Of a DNA stretch of 64,000 nt, positions 15,583-43,697 are shown in pieces. The DNA comes from Gordonia sp. (in: high G+C Gram-positive bacteria) (lineage in GTDB: Bacteria; Actinomycetota; Actinomycetes; Mycobacteriales; Mycobacteriaceae). Below the pieces are notes generated by a model. That model did not search any database. It worked only from the letters and a program-made list of their open reading frames with translations, and was not told where the DNA came from. Numbering within the stretch: the first letter of the stretch is position 1; the number at the start of each line of letters is the position of its first letter. Position numbers and translations under genes: made by a program. The stretch is from positions 1,703-65,702 of the forward strand of contig JASGFO010000001.1 of NCBI GenBank assembly GCA_047605505.1, read 5' to 3'.

Positions 15583-15677
15583 CCCCCAAGGCGGGGCACC
15601 CCGGCGACACGCGCGCTCGGCGCAGCGCCCGCGTCCTGCGGGCGGGCCCAGACGCGGACCGATCCCACCTCAATCCA

Positions 15678-18401: not shown

Positions 18402-18412
18402 ATCCTGTGCTG

Positions 18413-19663: not shown

Positions 19664-19922
19664 TACTGTCCTCCGCAACCCAACTCTAGTCCCGGTCATG
19701 CTAGCCGTATCCCGGTAACCCGTCATCTCGAACCGGCAAAGCGGCACCTGGACGCCACATTTATACCATGGATCGAAGATGCACTATACTACAGTCGCCG
19801 GAGCCCGTCGCCCGCCCCACCGAGCCCGAGACCCGGTACCCTGCAACGACGACGCCCACCATGCGAGAGCAGTGGCGGTGGACGAGGAACAAGTTCTGAT
19901 TCCTGACGACATTGGAGAACGC

Positions 19923-23841: not shown

Positions 23842-23930
23842 CCGAGGTGTCCGACACCGGCGCGACATATCGGCCGGGCGTGATTCGTTCGACCATGACC
23901 AAAACCAAGCTGAGAGTGGTGAAGTAGGCA

Positions 23931-27226: not shown

Positions 27227-27228
27227 CA

Positions 27229-27296
27229 GCACTCCTGCATCCTGGACCAATGGTCCTCGCTTCACTGGCTCACATGAGCACGACCACTGTAGCGAA
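27229..27296 (-). promoter_or_regulatory. Promoter/leader copy 1 (-10 TACAGT, GGACCA-T-TGGTCC palindrome, RBS)
   Basis: 41/47 identity of 27229-27275 to 34264-34310; -10 element at the same offset in both copies. Confidence 0.65.
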
Positions 27297-27343
27297 CGAT
27301 CGGTAACCAGGCGGGATCGGATCGGCCGGCGTCATCCGCCCGG

Positions 27344-30956: not shown

Positions 30957-30970
30957 GCGACCATGTCCCG

Positions 30971-31534
30971 GTGCAGATCACTACCACCGCGCTCGCTGAT
31001 GTCCTGCTCCTGATCCCGACGCCGTTCCGCGACGATCGGGGGCTGTTCACGCGGACCTTCGACGCATGCGTCTTCGACGAGTATCTCAGTCGCCCCGGCG
31101 CCGCGGCGGGGTTCGTCCAGGATTCGCAGTCGCGGTCGGGCCGCGGTGTCGTCCGCGGCCTGCACGGCCGGGCCGGCCGCGGCGAGGCCAAACTGGTCCG
31201 CTGCGCGCACGGTGCCGTCCTCGACGTGCTCGTCGACATCCGCCCGGATTCGCCGACCTTCGGCCGCCGGGCGCAGTTCCGCCTCGACGACAACGACTTT
31301 CATCACCTCTACATCCCTCCGGGATTCCTGCACGGGTTTCAGGCGCTGACCGATGTCGCCGACGTCTGCTACCGGATCGACCGGCCACACGATCCGAGCG
31401 AGGATCTCGGCGTCGCCTATGACGACCCCGATCTCGGCATCGCCTGGCCGGAGCCGGTGACCACCGTGTCGGCACGTGACACCGGCGCCGGCAGCTGGGC
31501 CGATCTGCTCGAGCGCCTGCGGCCGGCGCGCTGA
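30971..31534 (+). CDS. rfbC: NDP-4-keto-6-deoxyhexose 3,5-epimerase (RmlC/RfbC cupin), antisense to its operon
   Basis: DDRGLF, QDSQS.S..GV.RGLH, KLVRC..GAV.DV.VD.R.DSPTFG, HGFQ.L, DP.LGI.WP. Confidence 0.93.
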   Translation: MQITTTALADVLLLIPTPFRDDRGLFTRTFDACVFDEYLSRPGAAAGFVQDSQSRSGRGVVRGLHGRAGRGEAKLVRCAHGAVLDVLVDIRPDSPTFGRRAQFRLDDNDFHHLYIPPGFLHGFQALTDVADVCYRIDRPHDPSEDLGVAYDDPDLGIAWPEPVTTVSARDTGAGSWADLLERLRPAR

Positions 31535-31547
31535 TCGGGACACCACC

Positions 31548-32198
31548 TCAGCGACCCGTCAACCGCAGCCGGGCCTTCTCCAGCACGAAGGCCTCGGCGT
31601 GCGGGGCCCGGCACTGGACGCCCCGCAGCCGGGACAGACCGAGGAAGGACTCGTCGTCGAACCAGTCGTGGTCGCGCTGGGACGGATAGTGCCGGGCGAG
31701 CAGATGCGCCTTCTCCCGGGCGATCTCGGCCGTCAGCGGATGAAACAGCGTGGGCTGCGGGGTGTCGGTCTCCCATTTGAGGATCTCGTATCCCAGGATC
31801 AGGTGATCGCGGAACTCCGTGGGGGTGAGCTCGGCGAGCAGCCGGTGATCCTGATGGGCGTCGTGCCGCTGGGGGGCGAAGACCACCTCGGGCGCGGTCG
31901 TCCGCCGAAACGCTCCCACCGCCTCCTTCACCGCGGTCCAGTGGGCGGGTGTGCGGCCGTCGGGAAGGTCCAGCACGGTCACCGCAATGTCGGCGCCGGG
32001 GCAGAACGCCGCCAGCGCGCCGCGTTCCTCGGCCGCGCGCGCGGTACCGCCGCCGGTGAGGATCAGTGCGCGCACCCGGATCCCGGGGCGTGCCCGGGCC
32101 AGCGTCAGCAGCACCCCGCCCAGGCCGATCGCGATGTCGTCGCAATGCGCGCCCAGCACCGCCACTTCCGACAACGCGTCGGCACCGAGATCGATCAC
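31548..32198 (-). CDS. PIG-L/LmbE family deacetylase
   Basis: GAHCDDIAIG.GG, R..EE, DAHQDH. GTG overlaps the rfbF stop. Confidence 0.85.
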   Translation of the reverse strand: MIDLGADALSEVAVLGAHCDDIAIGLGGVLLTLARARPGIRVRALILTGGGTARAAEERGALAAFCPGADIAVTVLDLPDGRTPAHWTAVKEAVGAFRRTTAPEVVFAPQRHDAHQDHRLLAELTPTEFRDHLILGYEILKWETDTPQPTLFHPLTAEIAREKAHLLARHYPSQRDHDWFDDESFLGLSRLRGVQCRAPHAEAFVLEKARLRLTGR

Positions 32199-32980
32199 AG
32201 CGTGTGGGCGTCTTCCCACACCATCCACGGCCGGTCCCCGGCGGCGTACCGCTGGTCGAGTTCGGCCCGCTCTTTGAAGGTGTCGGCGGACTTCCAGAAC
32301 CCGTCGAGCCGGTAGGCGTAGAGGCGTCCCCGCGCGGCCAGCGCGGTGCAGGCATCCTCGACGAGGCAGCCGTTCTCCGGGATGTGGTCGAAGACCTCCG
32401 GGGTCAGGACGAAGAATCCGCCGTTCTCCCAGATCGGGAACTCCGAGACCGGGGTGATCGCCGAGGCCATCCCGGAGTCGTCGACGTCGACGCAGTGGAA
32501 GGTCGACACCGGCCGCACCACCACCATCGACGCCGCCGCGCCCGCGGTCTTCACCTCGTCGATCATCGCGTCCAGGGGGGCGTCGGTGAGGACGTCGGCG
32601 TAGTTCGCGAGGAAGTGGCCCTCACCGTCGAGCAGGTGGGCCACCCGGCGGAGGCGTTCCCCGATCCGCGTTTCGAGGCCGGTGTCGACAAAGGTGATCG
32701 ACCAGTCGCTGATGTCGGAGCCCAGCAGCTGCACGTCACCGCCGCGCAGGACGAAGTCGTTGGACTCCGCTTCGTTGTAGGAGAGGAAGTAGTCCTTGAT
32801 GTGGCGGGCACCGTAACCCAGGCACAGGATGAAGTCCTTGTGCCCGAAGTGGGCGTAGTAGCGCATCACATGCCAGATCAGCGGCCGCGGCCCCACCATC
32901 TGCATCGGTTTGGGGATGTCGTCGACGGGGGAATTGCGCATGCGCATGCCGTAGCCGCCGCAGAACAGCACGACCTTCAT
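32195..32980 (-). CDS. rfbF: Glucose-1-phosphate cytidylyltransferase
   Basis: MKVVLFCGGYG.R, PKPM, WHVMRYYAHFGH, VDTG, NGGFFV, GFW...DTFKE. Confidence 0.92.
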   Translation of the reverse strand: MKVVLFCGGYGMRMRNSPVDDIPKPMQMVGPRPLIWHVMRYYAHFGHKDFILCLGYGARHIKDYFLSYNEAESNDFVLRGGDVQLLGSDISDWSITFVDTGLETRIGERLRRVAHLLDGEGHFLANYADVLTDAPLDAMIDEVKTAGAAASMVVVRPVSTFHCVDVDDSGMASAITPVSEFPIWENGGFFVLTPEVFDHIPENGCLVEDACTALAARGRLYAYRLDGFWKSADTFKERAELDQRYAAGDRPWMVWEDAHTL

Positions 32981-34260
32981 GACCGCGCCCCTTCGGTGAC
33001 CCCGACCCGCTCGGCGTCGGGACTCTCGGTGTCGGGAACGTCAGCGACGTGCAGGGTGGGCAGCGGATACACCAGCCGGCCACCCCACTGCCCCACGTGC
33101 GCGAGCTGCGCGGTGATCTCGGTTTCCAGATTCCACGGCAGCACGACGATCACGTCGGGCTGGTCGGCGTCGATCCGGGCCGGGTCATAAATCGGAATCC
33201 GGGTGCCCGGGGTGTACCGGCCGTGCTTGTAGGGATTCCGGTCGACGGTGTAGGCGAGTAGATCCGGCCGGATTCCGCAGTAGTTGAGCAGCGTGTTGCC
33301 CTTGCCGGGGGCGCCGTAGCCGACGACGGTCTGCCCGGCGGCCTTCGCGTCGAGGAGGAAGCGGAGCAATGCCGCGCGCACCTGCTCGGCGCGTTCCTGC
33401 AGCCCGGAGTATCCGTCGACGCGATGCAGTCCGGCCGCTTCCTCGATGCGCAGCACCTCGGCAACCCGCGGACTCGGCTCGGTGCCGGCCTCGTCGGGTT
33501 GTGCCCAGAGCCGGATCGACCCACCGTGGGTGGGCAGCAGTTCGACGTCGATGACGCGCAGCCCGCCCGAGGCGAGCGCCCGGATCGCGCTGAGCACGGT
33601 GTAGTACTGGAAATGCTCGTGGTAGATGGTGTCGAACTGGCCCAGGGTGATCAGGTTGAGCGCGTGATGCACCTCGATGCTGACCCAGCCGTCGTCGGCC
33701 ACCAGGCCGCGCAATGATGTGGAGAAGCCGATCACATCGGGGATGTGGGCGTAGACGTTGTTGGCCACCACGAGATCGGCGGCGCCGTGCTCGGCGCGCA
33801 CGGCCCGGGCGAGCTCCTCGTCGAGAAAGGCCGTCTCGGTGGGCACCCCTTTCTCCCGCGCGACCGCACTCACGTTGACCGACGGCTCGATGCCCAGGCA
33901 GCGGATGCCGCGGGCCACGACGTGCTGGAGCAGGTAGCCGTCGTTGGAGGCGACCTCGACGACGAATCCGTCGTCGCCGAGTCCGGTCCGCTCGACGGCG
34001 CCGTCGACGTAGTTGCGGCAGTGGGATACCCAGGAGTCGGAGAACGAGGAGTAGTAGGCGTACTCGGTGAAGGTGTCCTCGGGCGTGATGAGCGCCGGGA
34101 TCTGCAGTAGCAGGCAGTCCTCACACAGCCGCAGATGCAGCGGGAACGTCGGTTCCAAGGTGTCGAGGTCGGCCTCGGCAAGGAAGCGTTCACAAGGCGG
34201 GGTGGCCCCGAGGTCGACAACGCTGGACAGCGTCGTCGACCCGCACAATCGGCAGTTCAA
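32977..34260 (-). CDS. SAM-dependent NDP-hexose 3-C-methyltransferase
   Basis: CRLC..C..C Zn-finger, EVASNDGYLL, NNVYAH, FDTIYHEH, HGGS, YGAPGKGNTLLNYC. TTG 34260 after GGAGG; ATG 34275 is an alternative start. Confidence 0.9.
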   Translation of the reverse strand: MNCRLCGSTTLSSVVDLGATPPCERFLAEADLDTLEPTFPLHLRLCEDCLLLQIPALITPEDTFTEYAYYSSFSDSWVSHCRNYVDGAVERTGLGDDGFVVEVASNDGYLLQHVVARGIRCLGIEPSVNVSAVAREKGVPTETAFLDEELARAVRAEHGAADLVVANNVYAHIPDVIGFSTSLRGLVADDGWVSIEVHHALNLITLGQFDTIYHEHFQYYTVLSAIRALASGGLRVIDVELLPTHGGSIRLWAQPDEAGTEPSPRVAEVLRIEEAAGLHRVDGYSGLQERAEQVRAALLRFLLDAKAAGQTVVGYGAPGKGNTLLNYCGIRPDLLAYTVDRNPYKHGRYTPGTRIPIYDPARIDADQPDVIVVLPWNLETEITAQLAHVGQWGGRLVYPLPTLHVADVPDTESPDAERVGVTEGARS

Positions 34261-34263
34261 AGG

Positions 34264-34331
34264 GCACTCCTCCATCCTGGACCACTGGCCCTCGCTTTAC
34301 TGACTTACATCCACCGGACCATCATAGCGAA
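34264..34331 (-). promoter_or_regulatory. Promoter/leader copy 2 (-10 TATGAT, RBS GGAGG)
   Basis: Direct-repeat partner of 27229-27296 at an offset of 7035 bp. Confidence 0.65.
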
Positions 34332-34488
34332 TCAACAGCAACTACACAGAATCGGGCAAGTCGGCGTCATTCCCGCGGCCGACAGTCGACGATCGACGAC
34401 CCGCACCAATCCGGCTGTGCGAGATAAATGATCTTTGTTTTGCTAATCTGTATTCTCGGTGCCATCCCCTCGTCGGAGGAGTTCTCTC

Positions 34489-35649
34489 GTGATCATCTTC
34501 GACATCCGCACCCTGCTGTGCGTCGTCGCCGTCACCGAGCTGCTGTTGGGCGTGGTGATGGCGATGCACGGAGTCCGCAATCCGGCCTCCGGGGCGATGC
34601 GCACCTGGGCTGTGGCCAGTGCGCTCACCGCCGTCGGGTGGCTGCTCGTGGGTCTGCGTGACCTGGCCCCGGACTGGCTCTCGGTCGGCCTCGCCGACGC
34701 CGTCCTCATCGGCGCCCTGATGCTGGTGGTGGCCGGTATGCGGCAGTTCACCGGCCGACGCTTGTCGTGGGCCCTGGTACCCGCGCCGTCGCTCGCTGTG
34801 GTCCTGGTCACCGCCGTCTCGCCGATCCGCGACAACCTGGGCGCCCGGGTGGTCCTCGTCAACCTCTGCCTGATCGCCTTGCTCCTCGTGCTCGCGCGCG
34901 ACGCCTGCCGCGATCAACGCATCGAACCGCTGGCGGCGCGCCGGTTCTTCCTCACCGCGCTCGCCGTGGCCGTGCTGGCCAACGCCGTCACGGCCGGGTA
35001 CGCCTGCCACCTCGCGCCGACGACAACCTTCCTCACCGCGGGCACCGTCCAGGAGATCGGCATCTTCGTCCAGGGTGCGGCGCTACTGGGCGGCAACCTG
35101 GGCATGTTCCTCATGGCGCAGGAACGGCTCGTGAACCAGCTGCGCGATGCCGCACACCGCGATGCCCTGACCGAGGTGCTGAACCGCCGCGGATTCGCCG
35201 AGGCCGCGACCGGCCTGCTGACCGGTCAGGCCAGGACATCGCAGCAGATGGCGGTGCTGCTGCTGGACCTGGACGGATTCAAGGCGATCAACGACACCCA
35301 CGGGCACACGGTGGGCGACTGCCTGCTGCGCGCCTGCGCCAAGGAACTGTCCTCGCAGCAGCGGCCCGGTGAACTGGTGGGCCGCTACGGCGGCGACGAG
35401 TTCTGCGCGCTGCTGCTGACCAGCGGTCCCGCCGAGACCCGGGCCCGCGCCGAGCAGCTGCGCCGCCGGATCACCGACCTGCTGGTGACCGCCCGCGGCG
35501 AACTGGTCTGCGCGACCGCGTCCGTCGGCGTCGCCGAGGTGCGCGATCCGGCGGCGGTCTCGGTGGTCGAGGCGCTCGCCGAGGCCGATCAGGCGCTCTA
35601 CCGCGCCAAGCGCGGCGGCCGCGACCGCGTGTGCATGATCAGCGCGTGA
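34489..35649 (+). CDS. Membrane-bound diguanylate cyclase
   Basis: About 7 TM helices, then DALT..LNRR, DLDGFKAINDTHGH..GD, RYGGDEF, ALYRAKRGGRD. GGAGGA RBS. Confidence 0.92.
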   Translation: MIIFDIRTLLCVVAVTELLLGVVMAMHGVRNPASGAMRTWAVASALTAVGWLLVGLRDLAPDWLSVGLADAVLIGALMLVVAGMRQFTGRRLSWALVPAPSLAVVLVTAVSPIRDNLGARVVLVNLCLIALLLVLARDACRDQRIEPLAARRFFLTALAVAVLANAVTAGYACHLAPTTTFLTAGTVQEIGIFVQGAALLGGNLGMFLMAQERLVNQLRDAAHRDALTEVLNRRGFAEAATGLLTGQARTSQQMAVLLLDLDGFKAINDTHGHTVGDCLLRACAKELSSQQRPGELVGRYGGDEFCALLLTSGPAETRARAEQLRRRITDLLVTARGELVCATASVGVAEVRDPAAVSVVEALAEADQALYRAKRGGRDRVCMISA

Positions 35650-36907
35650 CGTCGTCGATCGTTCGCTGCGGTCGGCCGAACAGATATCCCTGCAGGTAGT
35701 CGAAGCCGAGCTCACCCAGGATCGGCAGACACTCGGCGGTCTCCACCCCCTCGGCGACCAGACGGATGTCGTTGGTCTTGGCGACGTTGGCGATGGCCTG
35801 GACCACGGCATGCGCAGCAGGATCGGTCATCAGGTCATCGATCAGCGTCTTGTCGACCTTGACGACGTCGATGGGCAGGTCCCGCAGATACCGCAGGGCC
35901 GAGAACCCCGAACCGAGATCGTCGACGCAGATCGTGCAGCCGAGCTCGTGGAGGCCCTCGATCACCGCGGCCTCCTCCGAGCCCACCCGGACCACGTCGT
36001 TCTCCCGGATCTCGATCCACAACCGGCTCGCCTCGACGCCGACGGCGGCAATCGCATCGCGGATGTCGGCGACGAGGTTGCGATCCCACAGCTGCTGCAC
36101 CGACAGGTTGACCGCGACGAAGCCGTCGCGGTGCCGGGCGGAGACCTCACCGGCGAGCATGGCCAGCGCCTCGGTGACCACATGACGTCCGATCGGGACG
36201 ATGAGGTCAGACTCCTCGGCGGCGGGCAGGAACTTGTCCGGCGAGAGCAGCCCGTCATCGGTCTGCCACCGCACCAGCGCCTCATAGCCGGCCACCGCGT
36301 GGCCGGCGAGCGCGACGATCGGCTGGTAGACGAGCGGGAAGTCGGTGACCTCCGACCGGGTGAGCCGATCCATGAGCTCCACCTGTGCCCGCAGCGCGGG
36401 CAGTGTCTCGGCCGTCGCGAACTGCATGTTGTGGCCGCCGAGCAGAGCAGCACTGAGTGCCGCGTCCGCGCAGGCCTCCAGTTCCGCCTTGTCGGCGGGG
36501 AGCTCGTCGGCGATCGCGATGCCGATGGTGACGTCCAGGTGCGGACCGTCCTGATCGCCGTCGAGCAGCCAGCGCAGCTCGCCCTCGCCCGATTCGTCAT
36601 CGCCGGCGTGCGGGTCGAGGTAGACGAGCCATTCGAGGTCGCCGCGCCGGACGCTGACCAGCGCCGGTCCACCCTGCCGGACCAATGCGGCCATGACCTG
36701 CTCGGCGACCCGCACGGCCTCCGCCCGCCCGTGTGCGGCGGTCAGCCGACGCCAGGGGTCGGCGACCACCGCCGCGACGATCATCGGGCTCGACGGGCGC
36801 TCCTCCGCCGTCCCCGCCGCGCCCACGGCCACGGCCGCGCCGGGGACGGTGATGGCGGGGACGATCTTGGTGAATACCGGCAGTCGGCTCAAGACGACCG
36901 TTTGCAC
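35639..36907 (-). CDS. EAL-domain phosphodiesterase with a degenerate GGDEF-like N-terminus (start uncertain: 36784, 36907 or 36952)
   Basis: DFPLVYQPIV, EALVRW, VNLS, IEIRE, DDLGSGFS, KVDK, AEGVE, LQGYLF. Confidence 0.85.
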   Translation of the reverse strand: MQTVVLSRLPVFTKIVPAITVPGAAVAVGAAGTAEERPSSPMIVAAVVADPWRRLTAAHGRAEAVRVAEQVMAALVRQGGPALVSVRRGDLEWLVYLDPHAGDDESGEGELRWLLDGDQDGPHLDVTIGIAIADELPADKAELEACADAALSAALLGGHNMQFATAETLPALRAQVELMDRLTRSEVTDFPLVYQPIVALAGHAVAGYEALVRWQTDDGLLSPDKFLPAAEESDLIVPIGRHVVTEALAMLAGEVSARHRDGFVAVNLSVQQLWDRNLVADIRDAIAAVGVEASRLWIEIRENDVVRVGSEEAAVIEGLHELGCTICVDDLGSGFSALRYLRDLPIDVVKVDKTLIDDLMTDPAAHAVVQAIANVAKTNDIRLVAEGVETAECLPILGELGFDYLQGYLFGRPQRTIDDVTR

Positions 36908-36923
36908 CCATGCGCCCAGTTGG

Positions 36924-38309
36924 TTACCCACCTTCGCCACGGAGCACCGCACCTACCGTCCTGATGATGATCTTGATGTCCAACCACACACTCCAGCTCT
37001 CGATATAGAAGTTGTCGTACAGTGCCCGGTCGGTGATCGAGGTGTCGCCGCGCAATCCGTGGATCGCCGCCCACCCGGTGAGTCCGACCTCCACGCGGTG
37101 GCGGTCACGGTAACTCGGGATCTCCTGCTCGAACTGTTCGACGAAATGTGGCCGCTCCGGCCGCGGTCCCACGATCGACATGTCCCCGCGCAGCACATTC
37201 CACAGCTGCGGCAGCTCGTCGAGCGAGGTCTTGCGGATGAACTTGCCGAACGGGAAGATGCGGTCGGCGTTCGACGGTTGCCATTCGGAATCTGACGATC
37301 TCTCCGGGACCGGCCGCATCGACCGGAACTTCAGGACGTCGAAGCTCCGTCCGTCGCGGCCGATCCGATTCTGCCGGAACAAGATCGGTGCCGAGGAGTC
37401 GGAGAGCCAGACTCCCAGGGCGGTCAGCCCCAGCAGCGGGCTCAGGAGCACGAGTGCCACCGAGACCACGCTGACATCGAAGACGCGCTTGAGTTTCCAA
37501 TACCAGGTCCGGCGGGCATCGCGACGCACCCGGATCAACGGGATCGTGTGAATCCGGTCCATGTTCGGGGCAAACGACGCGAACTCGAAAAGCCGCGGGA
37601 CGATGAAGATCTCGCAGTCGAGTTCATCGCAGGCACGCAATGGGCCGACGAGCCGGGAATCCGGCAGACCACTGAACGCAACGATCACGGTGTCGATGCG
37701 GTGCTCGGTCACCTTGTCACGAAGGCGCTCGACGCCGTCCTCGACACTCACCCCGGTGTTCACGAGCTCGGCCATCGGATCCTTGCTGGCGGCCAGCACC
37801 ACGTCGATGCCGAGTTCCGGCAGCGCGCGGGAACTCGTGATCAGGTCCGCGGCCACGATGCCGTCGCCGACCACCATGGTGCGCATCCGCTGCGCCGGGG
37901 AACGACGCCGCCGGCGGACGACGGCGTAGTACGCCGTGCGGACGACGAACAGCGCCACGAAGACGAGCCCGGCATGGGCCGCGGCATCGACGATGGAGAC
38001 GCCGGGCCGGGTCGCCACGACGATCACTCCGGTCGTGATGATCGACCACGACGCCAGCCGTGGCAGGTCGTCGAGCGACGACAGGGTGATCCGGCGCCGG
38101 TAGAGCCCGGCCGCTTCGAGGACGAGGACGGTGACCGGGACGCCGAGAAGGATCGCGATCCAGCCCCGCGTACCGTTGTCGTGGTCGGTGATGACCGCGA
38201 CAACGAACAGCACCACGGCGTCGAGGACCGGCAGGGCGCGATCGATCCGATTGCGCAGCACTTTCCGCGTCGGCGCCTGAAAGTCAGGTCCCTGCGGCGT
38301 CACCACCAC
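36924..38309 (-). CDS. Priming polyprenyl-phosphate sugar phosphotransferase (WcaJ/WbaP family)
   Basis: KRVFD, F.Q.R.G, KFRSM, R.TSLDELPQL.NVL.GDMS.VGPRPE, GLTGWA, D..YIE.WS. Confidence 0.93.
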   Translation of the reverse strand: MVVTPQGPDFQAPTRKVLRNRIDRALPVLDAVVLFVVAVITDHDNGTRGWIAILLGVPVTVLVLEAAGLYRRRITLSSLDDLPRLASWSIITTGVIVVATRPGVSIVDAAAHAGLVFVALFVVRTAYYAVVRRRRRSPAQRMRTMVVGDGIVAADLITSSRALPELGIDVVLAASKDPMAELVNTGVSVEDGVERLRDKVTEHRIDTVIVAFSGLPDSRLVGPLRACDELDCEIFIVPRLFEFASFAPNMDRIHTIPLIRVRRDARRTWYWKLKRVFDVSVVSVALVLLSPLLGLTALGVWLSDSSAPILFRQNRIGRDGRSFDVLKFRSMRPVPERSSDSEWQPSNADRIFPFGKFIRKTSLDELPQLWNVLRGDMSIVGPRPERPHFVEQFEQEIPSYRDRHRVEVGLTGWAAIHGLRGDTSITDRALYDNFYIESWSVWLDIKIIIRTVGAVLRGEGG

Positions 38310-38584
38310 GTGCCCTCCCGCTTCTCCGGGGCACACGGCCCGGTGTCTCCCGCATTGATTGCGTCGCAAAGATAGCACCAGGTCAGCGCGACCGAGTGGC
38401 GATGGTGCGAACCACCCAAACCCACCGACCGATGCGTACCACAGCTGGACCGGTTAATGTGGCACCACTCACAAAGCCGTGACGAACCCGAGCCATTGAG
38501 CGATACCGATGTTATGGTTTGGCATCCTAAATGGCGATACACATCTCGCGGGGAAGTGTGCGATCTCGAAGGAAGGTCAGGATC

Positions 38585-39835
38585 GTGAGACACTTGTCCA
38601 GATTCCTTGGCCAGTACGACCTCCGGTCGATGGCGACGATCATCAGCACCAGTTCAGTACTGCCGCTGCCCATTGTCGCATTCGTGTTCCCGGAGATCCT
38701 CCGGCCGGGCGCGTTGCCCATCCTGTTGTTTGAATGGTTCATCACGGTTGCCGCCTTCGCCGCCGCCCTCATCCGCCGGCGCCTCTCCGATCTCGAGTTC
38801 ACGGTACTCGCAAGCTTCGGGATCGGCGGGATCTGCACCACGGCGCTGGTCTTGGCCGATCCGCGCGCCTCGCAGACCGTACTGATCCTGGTCACCGCCA
38901 TCCCGACGATCTCCGCCGCACTCCCGCGTCCCAAGATCACCAGCTACCTGACCGTTTTCGCGCTCGCCGCGATGATCGGGGTCGCCGCGGTGGTGTCGCG
39001 GTCGCCCGTCGAACTCCTGGTGATCGTGGGCGCCATCCTCGGAACCGTCGCGGCACCGGTGTTCCTCATCATCGCCCTGCGCAAGTCGCTGTCGACGGCC
39101 GTGGACCGGGAGAAACAGCTGGTCGGCATCGACCCGCTGACGAGCCTGCTCAATCGACGCGGCCTCCGGGACCGGATCACCCCGCTGCTGGCGCTCGGTC
39201 AGGAGACACCGAGCCAGGTGGGCATCCTCGTCGTCGACATCGACCACTTCAAGGAGGTCAACGACCACGACGGGCATCTGGCCGGCGATCGCGTCCTGAT
39301 CCAGACCGCCGACGCCCTGACCGCGGCGGTCCCCGAATCGTCGCTCGTCTGCCGGTACGGCGGCGAGGAGTTCGTCGTCTTCGCCTTGGTGCACGACGAA
39401 CAACATCTTCGTGAGCTGGCCGAATCGGCCCGCGAGGGCGTCTCGCACGCCACCGCGATCACCGTGAGCATCGGCGGCGTGTGTGCCCGGCTGTATCAGT
39501 CGGTCGAGGCCGCCTCACTGGCGACGTCCGCGGTCATCACCACCCTGATCGAACGCGCCGATCGCAACGTGTACACCGCGAAGTCCAAGGGACGCAATCT
39601 CAGCATCGTCACCTCGCACGCACCGTTGGCCTGGCGCTCGGAGCGGACCGGCCCGCCACCCCGTCCGCTGCCCTTGCTGCCCGGTCAGCCGACCATCACC
39701 CAGCTGCTGGGCCGCGCGACCGATCCGGATGCCGCCGAGCCGCGATCCGGATCCGCCGACCCCAGCAGACGATCCCGCTCGTCGCACATGGTCCGCCATA
39801 CCCCCGGCGTCGCCCGGCCACGGATGTCGGCCTGA
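38585..39835 (+). CDS. Membrane-bound diguanylate cyclase
   Basis: TM block, then DPLT.LLNRRG, DIDHFK.VND..GH..GD, RYGGEEF, Y.AK..GRN. Confidence 0.9.
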   Translation: MRHLSRFLGQYDLRSMATIISTSSVLPLPIVAFVFPEILRPGALPILLFEWFITVAAFAAALIRRRLSDLEFTVLASFGIGGICTTALVLADPRASQTVLILVTAIPTISAALPRPKITSYLTVFALAAMIGVAAVVSRSPVELLVIVGAILGTVAAPVFLIIALRKSLSTAVDREKQLVGIDPLTSLLNRRGLRDRITPLLALGQETPSQVGILVVDIDHFKEVNDHDGHLAGDRVLIQTADALTAAVPESSLVCRYGGEEFVVFALVHDEQHLRELAESAREGVSHATAITVSIGGVCARLYQSVEAASLATSAVITTLIERADRNVYTAKSKGRNLSIVTSHAPLAWRSERTGPPPRPLPLLPGQPTITQLLGRATDPDAAEPRSGSADPSRRSRSSHMVRHTPGVARPRMSA

Positions 39836-40452
39836 TCCCACCACATGATCTGCGTGCGGTAGCGCTCGTCGGGATACGGCGTCGCAGGCACCGCCAGATC
39901 AAGCCGACCGCCGCCGGATTCCCACCGGGACAGCACATGCCCGGCCGCCGAGGCCAGGAGATGGTCGACGCCGCAGACCTCCATGTAGATCAGGCCCATC
40001 CGCGCCAGCCCGGCCGCGACGTCCGCGGCCAGCGGCGAGCGCTCATCGACCCACGCGGTCTTGACCTCGACCAGACCACCGGCGATCCGGTCCTCGATCG
40101 CGTTCACCAGTTCCCGCTGGCCCGGCCGGCCGGCCCATTCCACCGCGACCGCATGTGACTGCATCGCCGCGGTGACCCGCCGCGAGACCCGTGCCCCGCC
40201 GATGATCCGCCCCTCGTCGTCGACGGCCGTGGTGAAGATCGTCGTCGAGGCACCCGGACGCACGGCGTCGACGTCGAGCGCCGCGGTACAACCGTGCCGC
40301 GTGTAGGCCGTGGCGGCACCACGCAGGTAGTCATCCCACAGCTCGACGTCGACCGTCGGCTGCCCGACGCACATGGTGTACCCGGTCCCCGGGTGGTGGC
40401 GTGCCTCGACCCGAAAGCTCCCGACAGACGGGTGGTTGGTGCGGCTCTGCAT
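39685..40452 (-). CDS. Rv1356c-like putative N-acyl amino acid synthase (FeeM/OxzA-type acyltransferase fold)
   Basis: LW..YL.GA...Y..HG, G...GG.R, SHA..EW, G.VE.K.AWV, PYPDERY.T...WW. Adjacent to an Rv1355c-like gene. AGGAG RBS. Confidence 0.72.
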   Translation of the reverse strand: MQSRTNHPSVGSFRVEARHHPGTGYTMCVGQPTVDVELWDDYLRGAATAYTRHGCTAALDVDAVRPGASTTIFTTAVDDEGRIIGGARVSRRVTAAMQSHAVAVEWAGRPGQRELVNAIEDRIAGGLVEVKTAWVDERSPLAADVAAGLARMGLIYMEVCGVDHLLASAAGHVLSRWESGGGRLDLAVPATPYPDERYRTQIMWWDQADIRGRATPGVWRTMCDERDRLLGSADPDRGSAASGSVARPSSWVMVG

Positions 40453-40567
40453 TCAGTGTCTCCTCGCAAGGGATGTGGTCGGCCCGGGCCGGTAACGTTC
40501 GCGGCCTGCTAAGCGAACAATAACGTGGACCGTCACATCATGCGGCACCGTTGCGCCCTGCGCGTCG

Positions 40568-42646
40568 GTGGGGAACCATGCTCGTGTGCTGGATTCCCAC
40601 GACGCGAGTGCCGTCGTCTACACCGAATCGACCCTCCCCGCCGAACTCCGGTCGGCGCAGACGACGACCTTTGTCGACCTGTCCGGCTCGGCGGCGACCG
40701 CGCTCGCCGAGCTGGTTCCACCGGTCGCGGCCGCGGTCACCGCCGAGCCCGATCGCTTCGTCCACTACCCGTGGCGGGGGGTCGTCGTCCGGCTTCCCGG
40801 ACCGCTCGCGTATCGTCGCCTGCGTCTCGATCGCAACCGCAACAAGCTGACCTTCGATGAGCAAAACCGTGCGTCAGCACTGCGAATCGGCATCGTCGGG
40901 CTCAGCGTCGGGCACGCGATCGCCCTGACGCTCGCACTCGAAGGCCTCGTCGGCGAACTGCGTCTGGCCGATTTCGACGAGCTCGAGATCACCAACCTCA
41001 ACCGCGTGCCGGCCACCGTCGTCGACGTCGGCGTCAACAAGGCCATCGTCGCCGCCCGGCGTCTCGCCGAGATCGATCCGTACCTGCCGACCGCCGTCTA
41101 CCCCGACGGGGTCACGGCCGACAACATCGACGAGTTCCTCGACGGCCTGGACCTCGTCATCGAGGAATGTGATTCTTTCGACATCAAAGTTCGATTGCGG
41201 GAGAAATGTCGGGAATCACGTATTCCGGTGATCATGGAGACCTCGGACGGCGGCACCCTCGATGTCGAGCGATACGACCTCGAGCCGACGCGCCCACTCT
41301 TCCACGGGCTGGCCGGGGATCTGCGCGCCGACGATCTCGCCGACCTCGACCGCGGCGCCCTCACCCTGCTCGCCGTCCGGGTGCTGCAACCCCAGCACGT
41401 GACCGCCCCGATGGCGGCATCGGCGCTCGAGCTCGGACAGACGATCTCGGCATGGCCGCAACTCGGTGGCGATGTGCTGCTCGGCGGGGCCACCGTGGCC
41501 GCCGCGATCCGCCGGCTCGTCCAGGGGCGGCCGCTGCCCTCGGGCCGCGTGCGCTTCGACCGGGACGGCGGACTCGATGACCTCACCCAGCCGGAGATCT
41601 CCGCGAGCACGCCGGCGAGTGCCCCGGCCGGCACCACGCAGGATCTCGCCGCCCTCGCCGACGCCGCGTTCGTCGCCGCCCTCGCCGCGCGGGCACCGTC
41701 GCCGGGAAATCAGCAGCCCTGGCAGATCACCACCGACGGGTCCGCGGTGCGCATCGCACTCGATCCGGCGCGGACCTCGATTCTCGACATCGCGCACCGG
41801 GCCTCGTTGGTCACGCTCGGGACCGCGGTGCGCAGCGCGGAGATCGCGGCGGCCGCCCGGGGCCGATTCGGCGGCATCGACGTCGAGGGCACCGGCCCGC
41901 ATCTCACCGCCCGCGTCCGGCTCACCGAGACTGCCGTCACCGCCACCGAATCCGATCAGGCCCGGCTCACCGCACTGCTGTCGCGGGCCACCCGACGCGA
42001 TCTCGGCGACGCCTCTGAGCTCACCGACGACGACACCGCACGGCTCGTGGCCGCCGCGGCCACCGGGACCACCCGCGCGGTCGTGATCACCGGGGAGGAG
42101 CGCGCGGCATTCGGGTCGATCCTCGCGCGCAGCGACCGGATCCGCTTCCTCACCCCCGCGTTGCACCGGGAGATGTTCACCGAGCTGACCGATGACCCCA
42201 CCGCGCCCACCGGCATCCAGATCTCGTCGCTGGCATTGCCACCGGCGATGGCCGGGATGATCGATGTGCTCCGCCGCCCGGACGTGATGGCGCTGCTCGA
42301 TCGCTGGGACGGCGGCGCGATCCTCGGCGCCGACGCCGCCGGGCGGGTGGCGTCGGCCTCGGCAATCCTGATGCTCGTCCACCGCGGGAGGGCGCCCGCG
42401 GACTATCTGCACGCCGGGCGGGTGGCGTTGGATCTGTGGCTGACGGCGCAGGATCTGGGTTTCGCGGTACACCCGATGACGCCGACCTTCTTCTACGCAC
42501 TCGACGACGCCGAGACGCGGGCCCTGTCGGCCAACCGCGGCGACGAGCTGGTCGAGGCCCGCGCCGACCTCCTCGGTCACTGGCCGCTCGCCGCCGACGA
42601 GACGCCGACGATCGCCCTCCGGATCTCGCGGCTGCCTACCCGATGA
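40568..42646 (+). CDS. Rv1355c-family ThiF adenylation domain fused to a nitroreductase-like domain (OxzB-type)
   Basis: YPW, RLDRNRNKLT..EQ, IGIVGLSVG, LADFD.LE..NLNR, EECD...K, D.ERYDLEP, WPQL; C-terminal half ARAPSPGNQQPW. Confidence 0.85.
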   Translation: MGNHARVLDSHDASAVVYTESTLPAELRSAQTTTFVDLSGSAATALAELVPPVAAAVTAEPDRFVHYPWRGVVVRLPGPLAYRRLRLDRNRNKLTFDEQNRASALRIGIVGLSVGHAIALTLALEGLVGELRLADFDELEITNLNRVPATVVDVGVNKAIVAARRLAEIDPYLPTAVYPDGVTADNIDEFLDGLDLVIEECDSFDIKVRLREKCRESRIPVIMETSDGGTLDVERYDLEPTRPLFHGLAGDLRADDLADLDRGALTLLAVRVLQPQHVTAPMAASALELGQTISAWPQLGGDVLLGGATVAAAIRRLVQGRPLPSGRVRFDRDGGLDDLTQPEISASTPASAPAGTTQDLAALADAAFVAALAARAPSPGNQQPWQITTDGSAVRIALDPARTSILDIAHRASLVTLGTAVRSAEIAAAARGRFGGIDVEGTGPHLTARVRLTETAVTATESDQARLTALLSRATRRDLGDASELTDDDTARLVAAAATGTTRAVVITGEERAAFGSILARSDRIRFLTPALHREMFTELTDDPTAPTGIQISSLALPPAMAGMIDVLRRPDVMALLDRWDGGAILGADAAGRVASASAILMLVHRGRAPADYLHAGRVALDLWLTAQDLGFAVHPMTPTFFYALDDAETRALSANRGDELVEARADLLGHWPLAADETPTIALRISRLPTR

Positions 42647-43697
42647 TCTCCGCCAGCTGCTCCATGTCCTCGACGCGCTCGGCATGGGTTGGCGCCGCCG
42701 GCGCCGCCAACAGCCGGGTGACCCCGGCACCGCGGAAGGCCGCCACCCGCTCGGCGACATGGGATTTCGGGCCGATCAGCGACAGCGACGCGACGAGCTC
42801 GTCGGGGACGGCGGCCGCCGCCTCGACCTTCTTGCCGTCGAGATAGAGGTCCTGGATCAGCTTGGCCTCGTCGGCGTAGCCGTACCGGACGGTGAGCGCG
42901 TTGTAGAAATTCTTCCCACGCGCCCCCATCCCGCCGATATAGAGCGCGAGGTGATGGCGCACGCGCTCGGTGGCCTCCGCGATCTGCTCGGCATCGTCGC
43001 TGACCAGCGCGGTGGCATTGACGACGATCCCGAGCTCACCCAACGCCGGATCGCGGCGCGCCGTGCCCGCGGCCAGCGCGGCACCGAACGCCGCCTGCCC
43101 GTATTCGGGGTGGAACAGAAACGGCTGGAACTCCTCGAAATATTCGGCGGCCACCTCGGTGTTCTTGGGCCCGATCGCCGCCAGCAACATCGGGATCGAT
43201 TCGCGCACCGGATGATTGATGATCTTGAGCGGCTTGCCCAGGCCGCTGCCGCCGTCGTCCTTCGTCAGCGGCAACGTGTAGTGCCGACCGCGATACTCGG
43301 TCTTCTCGCGCCGCCAGATCAGTCGGCAGATCTCGGCGTTCTCGATGGCCCGGCCCACCGGGAAGTCGTAGCGCACCCCGTGAAATCCCTCGATCACCTG
43401 CGGGCCCGAGGCGCCGATGCCAAGGATGAACCGGCCACTGCTGACGTAGTCGAGGCCGGCCGCGGTCATCGCAAGGTTCGACGGGGTGCGCGAATACATC
43501 GGGAGAATGGCCGACTGCAATTCCATCGTCTCGGTCTTGGCCGCGAGGTAGCCGAGCTGACTCACCGCGTCGAAGCTGTAGGCCTCGGCGACCGCGACGC
43601 GGGCGACTCCGGCGCGCTCGTAGTCGGCGAGGTTGTCGATGGTCTCGCGGAAATCACCCGCGTAGTTGATGGGCATACCGAGCTTGAGTGATGTCAT
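42636..43697 (-). CDS. LLM-class F420-dependent oxidoreductase
   Basis: AEAYSFDA, R.P...AMTAAGLD..S.GRF.LG.G.SGPQV.EG.HG, LYIGGMGA..NFY. Confidence 0.9.
   Translation of the reverse strand: MTSLKLGMPINYAGDFRETIDNLADYERAGVARVAVAEAYSFDAVSQLGYLAAKTETMELQSAILPMYSRTPSNLAMTAAGLDYVSSGRFILGIGASGPQVIEGFHGVRYDFPVGRAIENAEICRLIWRREKTEYRGRHYTLPLTKDDGGSGLGKPLKIINHPVRESIPMLLAAIGPKNTEVAAEYFEEFQPFLFHPEYGQAAFGAALAAGTARRDPALGELGIVVNATALVSDDAEQIAEATERVRHHLALYIGGMGARGKNFYNALTVRYGYADEAKLIQDLYLDGKKVEAAAAVPDELVASLSLIGPKSHVAERVAAFRGAGVTRLLAAPAAPTHAERVEDMEQLAEIIG

What the first reader, a model, noticed from the sequence alone, without database searches (positions are those of the whole stretch)
34489..42646. Candidate acyl-oxazolone / c-di-GMP / exopolysaccharide signalling system
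Seen: an Rv1356c-like acyltransferase (39685-40452) and a divergent ThiF-nitroreductase fusion (40568-42646) sit beside two intact membrane diguanylate cyclases (GGDEF, GGEEF), an EAL protein and the EPS priming transferase. They lie at the end of a ~28 kb EPS island placed between menB and the pit block. Established: N-acyl amino acid synthase plus ThiF/nitroreductase-like enzymes (OxzAB in Proteobacteria, TyzABC in M. tuberculosis) make acyl-oxazolones. M. tuberculosis Rv1355c/Rv1356c are flanked by c-di-GMP genes Rv1354c/Rv1357c. Proteobacterial N-acyl amino acid synthases are linked to PEP-CTERM/EPS loci. Inference: a self-made lipid signal is read by the membrane DGC sensor domains and controls EPS/biofilm production, a quorum-sensing-like circuit not described for this group as far as I know.
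Basis: partly seen in the sequence, partly recalled or inferred. Interest (0 to 1): 0.82.

Follow-up and report, generated by a model that had tools for sequence, protein, structure and literature searches.

The report
Tryptazolone genes wired to c-di-GMP and EPS
The two "oxazolone" genes are the Gordonia copy of the TrzA/TrzS N-acyl-tryptazolone pathway published in 2025. They travel with, and in sister species are fused to, a dedicated membrane diguanylate cyclase, and in several lineages they sit inside exopolysaccharide clusters, which gives a concrete test of what these small lipids do.

Summary
The host is a Gordonia.

**Already in print.** The 255-aa protein (39685-40452, -) has a FeeM-like N-acyl amino acid synthase fold. 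The 692-aa ThiF + nitroreductase fusion (40568-42646, +) is a full-length Rv1355c-family protein. Together they are TrzA/TrzS, shown in 2025 (PMC12856293) to make N-acyl tryptazolones. That paper lists Gordonia and notes the c-di-GMP neighbours in M. tuberculosis. Earlier follow-ups of this scan saw the c-di-GMP linkage on other DNA (M. tuberculosis, M. smegmatis).

**What this check adds.**
- A second architecture occurs in Gordonia, Williamsia and Dietzia: a conserved 6-TM GGEEF cyclase, then trzA, then divergent trzS.
- 68 of 72 trzS loci from 17 genera have a GGDEF gene within 1.5 kb. In 15 of them it is the genome's only GGDEF gene.
- At least six other Gordonia species encode one polypeptide joining this cyclase to the ThiF cyclase.
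- The module lies next to an EPS priming transferase in 19 of 72 loci, and in a subset of those lineages it sits between that gene and other EPS genes. This EPS link is limited to certain lineages.

No test here addresses which way the signal runs. Verdict: a new variant of a known system.

The parts
39685..40452 (-). trzA: N-acyl amino acid synthase (Rv1356c/TrzA family). First step, acyl-CoA + aromatic amino acid (probably Trp) gives the N-acyl amino acid.
   Evidence: There is no Pfam or NCBIfam hit. Homologues of 53-58% identity occur in Gordonia and about 42% in Mycobacterium. A homologue was detected by trzS in 62 of 72 fetched loci. Natural TrzA-TrzS fusions of about 970 aa exist. The AF2 model has pLDDT 89. 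Its best PDB match is FeeM (2G0B), followed by CoA-dependent AHL synthases.
40568..42646 (+). [quoted passage not shown] It cyclises and desaturates the N-acyl amino acid to the oxazolone.
   Evidence: NF005901 scores 714 bits against a cut-off of 476, full length. The ThiF half is nearest to TcdA and the FDO half matches Acg 2YMV. Family-invariant residues are kept: G111, S113, G115, D135, R146, K158, E200-C201-D202 and R524/R526.
40453..40567 (.). 115-bp divergent intergenic region between trzA and trzS, presumably holding both promoters.
   Evidence: Read directly. No motif is conserved across six Gordonia loci. The sigma-70 consensus scan found nothing here.
38531..39835 (+). Trz-associated diguanylate cyclase (DGC2): 6-TM N-terminal domain plus a GGEEF domain. 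This is the conserved partner of trzA/trzS.
   Evidence: Pfam GGDEF E 1.7e-32, with about 6 TM segments. Orthologues that include the TM domain lie beside trzA in Gordonia, Williamsia and Dietzia. The 26-sequence alignment has GGEEF invariant, an RFDARS-type N-terminal consensus (D30 and R32 invariant) and an AIPAIAAM-type TM consensus (P125 and A129 invariant). A fused form exists in other Gordonia. The TM domain resembles MASE2/AdrA-type domains by language-model features only, score 0.92, which is a lead. There is no RxxD I-site.
36924..38378 (-). EPS priming polyprenyl-phosphate glycosylphosphotransferase (PGT). Here it lies between the EAL gene and DGC2.
   Evidence: TIGR03025 scores 372.8 bits against 295.55, with Bac_transf and CoA_binding_3 domains. 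The same position is seen in Gordonia L005/L006, 68% identity. PGT genes lie beside trzS or the cyclase in five further GTDB genus-level groups, named from one member each as Williamsia, Dietzia and two Rhodococcus groups.
35639..36952 (-). EAL phosphodiesterase with an unassigned 200-aa N-terminal region.
   Evidence: Pfam EAL E 2.1e-61, with catalytic motifs intact. The N-terminal region has no Pfam hit even at E 1. Orthologues of 44-47% identity lie upstream of DGC2 in all six Gordonia loci. Similar EAL genes are in the W. limnetica group and Dietzia.
34459..35649 (+). Extra 6-TM GGDEF cyclase, specific to this genome's arrangement.
   Evidence: Pfam GGDEF E 3.7e-37, motif RYGGDEF. It is absent at this position in L005/L006, where the C-methyltransferase abuts the EAL gene. 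It is not a member of the DGC2 family.
14326..34275 (.). Wzx/Wzy-type EPS island: GT2 x2, Wzx, GT1 x4, Wzy, aminotransferase, dehydratase, two C-methyltransferases, 3,5-epimerase, PIG-L deacetylase.
   Evidence: Pfam results. GC is 0.64-0.67 over 14-28 kb against 0.70-0.73 in the flanks. The sugar module (29850-34275) recurs next to trz loci in the R. tukisamuensis and R. phenolicus groups and in one W. limnetica-group locus.
8510..12153 (+). Second c-di-GMP pair: an EAL protein (8510-9745) and a membrane protein with two GGDEF domains (9742-12153).
   Evidence: Pfam. The assembly has two EAL matches, both in this window. Four of its seven GGDEF-domain matches are also here, in three proteins.
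42636..43697 (-). F420-dependent LLM oxidoreductase, a neighbour with no known role in the system.
   Evidence: TIGR03559 scores 440 bits. It holds the same position at 75% identity in G. tangerina and G. sesuvii, but not in most other loci.

Best explanation
**Biosynthesis (well supported).** trzA and trzS are the Gordonia version of the TrzA/TrzS pathway.
- TrzA N-acylates an aromatic amino acid from an acyl-CoA. By analogy this is tryptophan; it was not tested.
- The ThiF half of TrzS adenylates and cyclises the product.
- The flavin half desaturates it to an N-acyl oxazolone.

**Coupling to c-di-GMP (inferred from comparative genomics).** This pathway works as one unit with c-di-GMP turnover. 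A dedicated 6-TM GGEEF cyclase (38531-39835), usually with an EAL phosphodiesterase (35639-36952), is kept beside the trz genes. In sister species it is fused to the cyclase domain.

**Direction and output (my preferred reading, inferred).**
- The N-acyl amino acid or its oxazolone acts locally on the cyclase's sensor domain. That domain is 6-TM here and GAF in mycobacteria. The ligand thereby sets the c-di-GMP level.
- In this genome, one output is the adjacent Wzx/Wzy exopolysaccharide, whose priming transferase sits inside the module.
For: **Identity of the two enzymes.**
- trzS: NF005901 at 714 bits, full length, with invariant catalytic-type residues kept.
- trzA: FeeM-like fold at pLDDT 89, and natural TrzA-TrzS fusions.
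- Biochemistry of relatives is in PMC12856293.

**Coupling to c-di-GMP.**
- 68 of 72 trzS loci from 17 GTDB genera have a GGDEF gene within 1.5 kb.
- This holds across at least four gene orders and two unrelated sensor types, GAF-GGDEF-EAL and 6TM-GGEEF.
- 15 of the loci come from genomes with a single GGDEF match.
- All 25 Gordonia species with a full trzS have the DGC2-family gene 1.0-1.4 kb away. In four of them it is the only GGDEF gene.
- Single-protein 6TM-GGEEF-ThiF fusions occur in at least six Gordonia species, each next to... in the two loci examined, a divergent trzA homologue.

**EPS link.**
- A priming transferase lies within 9 kb in 19 of 72 loci, and within 154 bp of trzS in 11.
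- In three R. tukisamuensis-group genomes, the only GGDEF gene and the only Bac_transf gene both flank trzAS.
- In Dietzia the module lies between the priming transferase and GT2, Wzy, GT1 and Wzx genes.
- Both EAL matches of this assembly and four of its seven GGDEF-domain matches (three proteins) lie around this EPS island.
- Raising c-di-GMP in Rhodococcus erythropolis induces an unidentified EPS biofilm (PMC8085952).
Against: - No experiment links tryptazolones to c-di-GMP or EPS in any organism.
- The direction of coupling is not addressed by any test here.
- No c-di-GMP receptor (PilZ or similar) was found in the island.
- No ligand is known for the 6-TM domain.
- The EPS link is limited to certain lineages. 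CMT2 orthologues of 68% identity or more occur in about 64 of 201 genomes, but lie within 10 kb of trzS in only about ten.
- Most mycobacterial trz loci have no EPS gene nearby.
- Related genomes are not independent samples, so part of the linkage is inherited synteny.
- Tryptazolones stay mostly inside cells, and trzAS is reported as non-essential.
- Amino-acid specificity at about 40% identity to characterised TrzA is unknown.
- A few DGC2-family genes stand apart from any ThiF gene (G246:C62, G256:C101).
Confidence: 0.55

Rival explanations
1. The coupling runs the other way. c-di-GMP made by the neighbouring cyclase, or sensed locally, controls TrzA/TrzS activity or expression. The oxazolone is then an output of c-di-GMP signalling, for example a stress or envelope metabolite, rather than its input.
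For: The same linkage and fusion data fit this reading equally well. Fusing a GGDEF domain to the enzyme it regulates is a known pattern of local c-di-GMP signalling (general knowledge). The GAF and 6-TM sensor domains would then read some other cue. Tryptazolones accumulate inside cells.
Against: No c-di-GMP-binding motif is evident in TrzA or TrzS, and no RxxD I-site is present in the cyclase itself. Two unrelated sensor domains have been kept beside the same pathway. That is easier to explain if the pathway's product is what they sense.
Confidence: 0.2
2. The oxazolone is not a signal. It is a chemically activated (azlactone) acyl donor or building block that decorates the adjacent polysaccharide or another envelope component. 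An example would be ring-opening by the free amine of a deacetylated or aminated sugar. The c-di-GMP enzymes simply regulate the whole EPS unit.
For: The module lies beside EPS genes in several lineages, in Dietzia between the priming transferase and the glycosyltransferase/Wzy/Wzx genes. Some of these clusters encode a PIG-L deacetylase and an aminotransferase that would generate sugar amines. Unsaturated oxazolones react readily with amines (general chemistry). Fatty-acid-containing EPS is known in Rhodococcus (cited in PMC8085952).
Against: Most trz loci (most Mycobacterium, Rhodococcus and Rhodococcoides loci) have the cyclase but no EPS gene within 9 kb. The cyclase-ThiF fusions argue for a link to signalling itself. 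No transferase that would use an oxazolone has been identified.
Confidence: 0.1
3. There is no functional link. trzAS is a stand-alone small-molecule pathway, and its neighbours reflect inherited synteny and island insertion in a variable chromosomal region.
For: Kin share gene order. The EPS island has lower GC (0.64-0.67) and looks inserted. G. tangerina has the trz/c-di-GMP module between menB and pit without the island. The EPS association is limited to certain lineages.
Against: Adjacency to a GGDEF gene survives strand inversions, gene-order changes and a change of sensor type. It reaches the level of a single polypeptide. Where a genome has one GGDEF gene, that gene is the trz neighbour in 15 loci. 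Chance expectation is about 1 of 72 or fewer, given at most about 17 scored GGDEF matches per 4-8 Mb genome.
Confidence: 0.1

Closest known systems
TrzA/TrzS (Rv1356c/Rv1355c) N-acyl tryptazolone pathway of M. tuberculosis, M. smegmatis and Rhodococcus jostii RHA1 (Kleetz et al., J Biol Chem 2025, PMC12856293)
   Same: The two proteins are the same: a FeeM-like N-acyltransferase, and a ThiF cyclase fused to an Acg-type flavin oxidase that scores above the family cut-off. The invariant ThiF Asp and FDO Arg are kept, and there are c-di-GMP genes next door. Gordonia is named in the paper's similarity network.
   Different: Here trzA and trzS are transcribed divergently rather than as an operon. 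The c-di-GMP partner is a 6-TM GGEEF cyclase plus a separate EAL protein, not a GAF-GGDEF-EAL enzyme. An EPS priming transferase lies inside the module. Identity to Mycobacterium proteins is only about 40-45%, so the amino acid and acyl chain used are unknown.
OxzAB oxazolone synthetase of Pseudoalteromonas rubra and other Proteobacteria (de Rond et al.; bioRxiv 10.1101/2020.06.11.147165)
   Same: The same two-step logic and the same ThiF-nitroreductase fusion architecture.
   Different: It falls in a different similarity subcluster according to PMC12856293. Proteobacterial loci fetched here share only 24-26% identity. Those products are tyrosine- or phenylalanine-derived. None of the five proteobacterial or Desulfobacter-type loci fetched had a GGDEF or EAL gene within 10 kb.
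TyzACB (Rv2336-Rv2338c) N-acyl tyrazolone pathway of M. tuberculosis (PMC10404671)
   Same: Acyltransferase, ThiF cyclase and flavin oxidase chemistry. The acyltransferase is divergent from the other genes, as it is here.
   Different: ThiF and FDO are separate proteins, and the product is C12 tyrosine-derived. This assembly also has a ThiF-only gene on another contig, but it lies beside AMP-binding ligases rather than a TrzA-like gene.
AdrA (DgcC)-type MASE2-GGDEF cyclases that switch on cellulose synthesis in enterobacteria
   Same: A multi-pass membrane domain followed by an active GGDEF domain, genetically tied to exopolysaccharide production. NCBIfam gives a partial AdrA match (49.5 bits, far below cut-off), and the atlas gives a feature-level MASE2 resemblance.
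   Different: There is no significant Pfam MASE2 hit. The polysaccharide is of a different kind (Wzx/Wzy, not cellulose). No PilZ-type receptor was found. The partner is a small-molecule pathway.
PEP-CTERM/exosortase-associated N-acyl amino acid synthases of Proteobacteria (NCBIfam TIGR03694; from memory)
   Same: A FeeM-fold N-acyl amino acid synthase genetically tied to an EPS locus.
   Different: The 255-aa protein gives no hit to any NCBIfam model even at E 1. There is no exosortase or PEP-CTERM system here. The oxazolone-forming second enzyme and the c-di-GMP enzymes are additional.

Membership tests
TrzS / Rv1355c family (NF005901) | Full-length match above the curated cut-off | tested here: met
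   714.4 bits against a cut-off of 476; residues 25-689 on profile positions 28-702 of 722. ThiF-only proteins can also pass this cut-off, so the full-length coverage is what counts.
TrzS / Rv1355c family (NF005901) | ThiF-like cyclase fused to an Acg-type flavin-dependent oxidase | tested here: met
   Pfam ThiF at 89-224. NF047509 Acg family at 369-639. PDB sequence matches to TcdA/ThiF/MoeB and to Acg 2YMV.
TrzS / Rv1355c family (NF005901) | Catalytic ThiF Asp (D217 in M. smegmatis) and FDO Arg (R540) | tested here: inconclusive
   D202 (in the invariant E-C-D triplet) and R524/R526 match the window residue in at least 97% of 70 orthologues, and are strictly invariant in the 25-sequence alignment. 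They sit at the expected offset of about 15 residues. The M. smegmatis sequence was not in hand for a direct residue map.
TrzS / Rv1355c family (NF005901) | Makes N-acyl tryptazolone from N-acyl tryptophan (ATP- and O2-dependent) | not testable with these tools
   This needs expression and LC-MS.
TrzA / Rv1356c family | Homologous to the protein encoded beside trzS in mycobacteria and Rhodococcus | tested here: met
   tblastn gives 30-49% identity to the gene next to trzS in 62 of 72 loci. There is a 42% match to the Mycobacterium sp. TNTM28 protein that lies beside its trzS.
TrzA / Rv1356c family | GNAT-type N-acyl amino acid synthase fold | tested here: met
   AF2 pLDDT 89, pTM 0.84. Foldseek top hits are FeeM 2G0B (E 1.7e-07, TM 0.71-0.76 on the target), then the CoA-dependent AHL synthases RpaI, MesI and BjaI.
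TrzA / Rv1356c family | Upstream of trzS in one operon | tested here: not met
   Here, and in 17 further loci fetched from the genome sample (plus the six Gordonia loci), trzA is on the opposite strand, with starts 115 bp apart in the window. This is a difference in organisation, not in protein family.
Active diguanylate cyclase (GGDEF) | GG(D/E)EF active site with the preceding Arg and the DxDxFKxxND metal/substrate motif | tested here: met
   RYGGDEF with LDLDGFKAIND in the first cyclase; RYGGEEF with VDIDHFKEVND in the second. GGEEF is invariant in 26 DGC2-family sequences. Enzyme activity was not tested.
Active c-di-GMP phosphodiesterase (EAL) | EAL, N, ExxE, DDxGxG, KxD, EGVE and QG motifs | tested here: met
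   YEALVRW, NLS, EIRE, DDLGSG, KVDK, EGVET and QGYLFGRP were read in the translation. Pfam E 2.1e-61.
EPS priming glycosylphosphotransferase (TIGR03025) | Score above the curated cut-off, with the Bac_transf catalytic domain | tested here: met
   372.8 bits against 295.55. Bac_transf at 297-479, CoA_binding_3 at 90-261, and 4 TM-like segments.
LuxI/LuxR-type acyl-homoserine-lactone quorum sensing | AHL synthase plus a cognate LuxR-type receptor | tested here: not met
   There is only a fold-level resemblance of TrzA to CoA-dependent AHL synthases. No LuxR-type gene lies in 34-44 kb. The system may work like quorum sensing, but it is not a member of that family.
PEP-CTERM-associated N-acyl amino acid synthase (TIGR03694) | Match to the family model | tested here: not met
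   No NCBIfam model matched the 255-aa protein at E up to 1.

The most novel reading that the evidence does not exclude
N-acyl tryptazolone, or its N-acyl-tryptophan precursor, is the cognate ligand of the diguanylate cyclase that always accompanies its synthase. The sensor is a GAF domain in mycobacteria and Rhodococcus, and a 6-TM domain in Gordonia, Williamsia and Dietzia. This would make a self-contained 'make a lipid, sense it, set c-di-GMP' circuit across the Mycobacteriales. In several lineages that circuit would drive the exopolysaccharide cluster it is embedded in. It would name the unknown input signal of the main c-di-GMP enzyme of mycobacteria (Rv1354c/DcpA type). It would also give oxazolones their first physiological role.
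Probability: 0.3. Interest if true: 0.85.

Novelty: new variant of a known kind. Interest (0 to 1): 0.6.

Why it matters
The enzymes are known, but the physiological role of bacterial N-acyl oxazolones is called 'a major unresolved question' by the group that characterised them (PMC12856293).

The comparative data here turn a one-line remark about neighbouring genes in M. tuberculosis into a sharper, testable claim.
- The pathway and a dedicated diguanylate cyclase behave as one genetic unit across at least 17 genera.
- In many genomes that cyclase is the only GGDEF gene.
- In some Gordonia species the cyclase and the oxazolone cyclase domain are a single protein.

The data also point to a candidate output. 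This is a defined Wzx/Wzy polysaccharide cluster with its priming transferase inside or next to the module. Raising c-di-GMP in Rhodococcus is known to induce an EPS whose genes were never identified (PMC8085952).

Gordonia, Williamsia, Dietzia and Rhodococcus matter in wastewater foaming, bioremediation and biodesulfurisation, where aggregation and biofilm formation are practical traits. The same logic bears on the sole diguanylate cyclase (Rv1354c) of M. tuberculosis.

Tried and rejected
- **Sequence search of the 255-aa family against solved structures.** A profile of the family found nothing even at E 10. The fold search was needed instead.
- **Complex prediction.** I tested the cyclase (residues 25-370) with the ThiF half of TrzS (57-335), both as alignments. 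It gave score 0.00, which is no verdict and counts neither for nor against binding.
- **Shared operator.** I looked in the 115-bp trzA-trzS intergenic region. The alignment of seven Gordonia loci showed no conserved motif, and the sigma-70 and terminator scans were at background.
- **c-di-GMP receptor in the island.** Relaxed Pfam scans of the unassigned ORFs and of the N-terminal parts of the EAL and GGDEF proteins gave only weak hits: NTP_transferase for 32195-32980, Wzz-like for 19779-20567 and the Wzy C-terminus, and degenerate GGDEF for the N-terminus of the 8510-9745 EAL protein.
- **First cyclase as part of the conserved module.** Rejected for 34459-35649. It is missing from the closest Gordonia loci and is not in the DGC2 family.
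- **Universal EPS link.** Rejected. The sugar-module gene is usually elsewhere in the genome.
- **Literature on the fusion.** A search for GGDEF together with ThiF or oxazolone found no description of the fusion in the held library. That library lacks most subscription journals.

Full report
**1. What is in the sequence.** Between 34.4 and 42.7 kb there are six uninterrupted ORFs with the third-position GC typical of coding sequence in this 70% GC genome. Pfam and NCBIfam identify them as follows.
- 34459-35649 (+): a cyclase with about six predicted TM segments and the motif RYGGDEF.
- 35639-36952 (-): an EAL phosphodiesterase with all catalytic motifs.
- 36924-38378 (-): a priming polyprenyl-phosphate glycosylphosphotransferase (TIGR03025, 372.8 bits against 295.55).
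- 38531-39835 (+): a second cyclase with about six TM segments and the motif RYGGEEF.
- 39685-40452 (-): a 255-aa protein with no family hit.
- 40568-42646 (+): a 692-aa ThiF + Acg-type oxidoreductase fusion. It matches the 'Rv1355c family' model over its whole length (714 bits against a cut-off of 476).

Upstream lies a Wzx/Wzy polysaccharide island (14326-34275), with menB to its left. A Pit transporter lies to the right of the trz genes.

**2. Which organism.** The closest relatives of both trz proteins are in Gordonia, at 53-62% identity. A 'same genus' genome in the genome search has a contig of exactly the length of the Gordonia tangerina contig that carries the orthologous locus. The assembly is a 4.09-Mb, 352-contig, 88%-complete draft.

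**3. The two 'oxazolone' genes are TrzA and TrzS, which are in print.** Kleetz et al. (J Biol Chem 2025, PMC12856293) reported the following.
- Rv1356c (TrzA) N-acylates tryptophan from short acyl-CoAs.
- Rv1355c (TrzS) cyclises the product with ATP and then desaturates it with O2, giving N-acyl tryptazolones.
- They detected these compounds in M. smegmatis and R. jostii.
- They list Gordonia among the genera rich in homologues.
- They remark that the locus is next to cyclic di-GMP genes in M. tuberculosis, 'consistent with' a signalling role.

For the window proteins I found four lines of support.
- The 255-aa protein belongs to a small family (238 representative clusters at E 0.001 or better). 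Some members are natural ~970-aa fusions to a full Rv1355c-family protein.
- Its AlphaFold2 model (pLDDT 89) best matches FeeM, the N-acyl amino acid synthase. CoA-dependent acyl-homoserine-lactone synthases come next.
- The fusion protein keeps the residues that are conserved in at least 97% of 70 orthologues. These include the ThiF nucleotide-binding glycines, D202 in an E-C-D triplet, and R524/R526. They sit at the offset expected for the D217 and R540 that were mutated in the M. smegmatis enzyme.
- Its ThiF half is nearest in sequence to TcdA, another ATP-dependent cyclodehydratase. Its second half matches Acg.

Two things were not shown. I made no direct alignment to Rv1356c, and the amino-acid and acyl-chain specificity at about 40% identity is unknown.

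**4. Linkage to c-di-GMP enzymes.** I searched 200 species-level genomes of the same GTDB family and fetched 20 kb around each of 72 trzS matches, 68 full-length and 4 partial, from 17 genera.
- A GGDEF domain lies within 1.5 kb of trzS in 68 of the 72 loci. Two more have it 5.7-6.4 kb away. One locus ends at a contig edge.
- These genomes carry 1 to at least 17 GGDEF matches. Chance would therefore give about one such locus or fewer.
- Fifteen of the loci come from genomes with a single GGDEF match, which is the trz neighbour.

Two architectures exist.
- **Type I** (Mycobacterium, several Rhodococcus-type genera and others): trzA, trzS and a GAF-GGDEF-EAL enzyme on one strand.
- **Type II**, to which the window belongs: a 6-TM GGEEF cyclase converging on trzA, with trzS divergent from trzA.

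Exact-sequence look-ups name the type II carriers as Gordonia, three Williamsia groups, Dietzia, and a second copy in Rhodococcoides yunnanense. The type II cyclase is one orthologous family that includes its membrane domain. In 26 sequences GGEEF is invariant, and there are conserved N-terminal (RFDARS-type) and TM (AIPAIAAM-type) consensus motifs.

Within Gordonia (92 species):
- 25 have a full trzS, and all 25 have this cyclase 1.0-1.4 kb away.
- In four of those it is the only GGDEF gene.
- Of the 67 species without a full trzS, 32 have no GGDEF at all.

Related genomes are not independent samples. Even so, the adjacency has survived inversions, reorderings and a change of sensor domain.

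Earlier follow-ups of this scan had already noted the type I linkage in M. tuberculosis and M. smegmatis. I re-tested it here and it holds.

**5. Fusion proteins.** Other Gordonia species encode a single 771-798-aa protein with two parts.
- The first 360 residues are homologous to the window's cyclase along its whole length, TM domain included (35% identity).
- The C-terminal part is homologous to the ThiF half of TrzS (39% identity).

In the two loci examined, a divergent trzA homologue (42% identity) lies next to it. Across the genus, six species have the uninterrupted fusion, one more has it with an in-frame TGA, and seven have the two halves as adjacent genes. These forms lack the flavin oxidase half. 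I found no description of such a fusion in the held literature. This is the strongest single argument that the cyclase and the oxazolone-type cyclase act together. It does not say in which direction.

**6. Link to exopolysaccharide.**
- *In this assembly.* Both EAL matches lie in this window, as do four of the seven GGDEF-domain matches, in three proteins. They sit on either side of the EPS island. The priming transferase lies between the EAL gene and the cyclase, as in two other Gordonia species. In four further Gordonia species the EAL gene and the cyclase are direct neighbours, with no transferase between them. G. tangerina has the whole module between menB and pit without any island.
- *Elsewhere.* A Bac_transf priming transferase lies within 9 kb of trzS in 19 of 72 loci from five genera. 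It is within 154 bp in the Williamsia maris group and in Dietzia.
- *R. tukisamuensis and R. phenolicus groups.* trzA-trzS-cyclase sits between the sugar module (55-80% identical to the window's) and the transferase. In the R. tukisamuensis-group locus examined (L041), the transferase follows the cyclase after 93 bp on the same strand. In three R. tukisamuensis-group genomes the only GGDEF gene and the only Bac_transf gene are these two.
- *Dietzia.* The module lies between the priming transferase and the GT2, Wzy, GT1 and Wzx genes of a different cluster.

The association is limited to certain lineages. The C-methyltransferase of the sugar module has orthologues of 68% identity or more in about 64 of 201 genomes. 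It is usually beside a transferase elsewhere, and within 10 kb of trzS in only about ten. No PilZ or other c-di-GMP receptor was recognised in the island.

Independent experimental context comes from Rhodococcus erythropolis. Raising c-di-GMP there induces a periodate-sensitive EPS biofilm whose genes are unknown (PMC8085952).

**7. How it most likely works.**
- *Shown by homology to characterised enzymes:* TrzA makes an N-acyl aromatic amino acid, and TrzS converts it to the oxazolone.
- *Inferred from conservation and fusion:* this pathway and the adjacent cyclase and phosphodiesterase form one functional unit.
- *Inferred, direction open:* the product or its precursor acts on the cyclase's sensor domain and sets c-di-GMP. 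In this genome that controls the neighbouring polysaccharide.

The main rivals are these.
- c-di-GMP controls oxazolone synthesis.
- The reactive oxazolone decorates the polysaccharide.
- The neighbours are merely inherited synteny.

A structure-prediction test of cyclase-ThiF contact gave no verdict, and read data could not be obtained.

**8. Verdict.** The biosynthetic core is already known and the signalling idea has been voiced in print. New here are the type II architecture with its dedicated membrane cyclase, the cyclase-ThiF fusion proteins, the 'only GGDEF in the genome' statistics, and the recurrent embedding next to or inside EPS clusters. I class it as a new variant of a known kind.

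The GGDEF tally includes one unpublished genome (G069). No specific claim rests on it.

Noticed in passing
L093:5786-8182 (-) and L094:5606-7921 (-), other Gordonia species: These are single proteins of 798 and 771 aa that join a 6-TM GGEEF diguanylate cyclase to a ThiF-like cyclase with no flavin oxidase half. Each lies next to a divergent TrzA homologue. Six species in the genus have the intact fusion, and seven have the two halves as adjacent genes.
   Followed up: yes
G000 contig C45, locus L097:2822-7563 (outside the window): The same genome has a ThiF-only relative of TrzS (358 aa). It lies downstream of a LuxR-type (GerE) regulator and two AMP-binding ligase-like genes, with no TrzA-like gene and no GGDEF nearby. 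It may be a ligase-type oxazolone cassette, like those noted by earlier follow-ups in Patescibacteria.
   Followed up: partly
window 8510-12153: A second EAL gene and an 803-aa membrane protein with two GGDEF domains sit just left of a thioesterase and menB. In two other Gordonia species (L007, L010) the trz module occupies that side of menB instead.
   Followed up: partly
window 39685-39835: The convergent GGEEF cyclase and trzA genes overlap by 151 bp at their 3' ends. The cyclase's last ~66 residues are Pro/Arg-rich, and are not matched by the fused Gordonia forms that read past this point (the other rows of the alignment were cut at the end of their BLAST match). They lie antisense to the conserved C-terminal helix of TrzA.
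   Followed up: partly
protein P0174 (metagenomic representative, 772 aa): A protein predicted as one ORF combines an N-terminal BldD-like DNA-binding region, a TrzA-like domain and a ThiF domain. BldD is a c-di-GMP-responsive regulator in Streptomyces. This could be a gene-calling run-through.
   Followed up: no
window 14000-28000: The glycosyltransferase, Wzx and Wzy part of the island has GC of 0.64-0.67, against 0.70-0.73 in the flanks, and lower third-position GC. This suggests horizontal acquisition. The sugar module (27.3-34.3 kb) has normal GC.
   Followed up: no
L011 (Streptomyces sp. 4N509B): A Streptomyces locus has trzA and trzS on one strand (33% and 42% identity). No GGDEF, EAL or Bac_transf gene was detected within 10 kb. 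The c-di-GMP linkage may therefore not extend outside the Mycobacteriales.
   Followed up: no
G125:C30:45301-46311 and G125:C149:6-968 (R. tukisamuensis group): In one genome the Rv1355c-family match is split. A ThiF-only ORF of 358 aa lies next to the sugar module, and the oxidase half is on another contig. This is either a naturally split TrzS or an assembly break.
   Followed up: no
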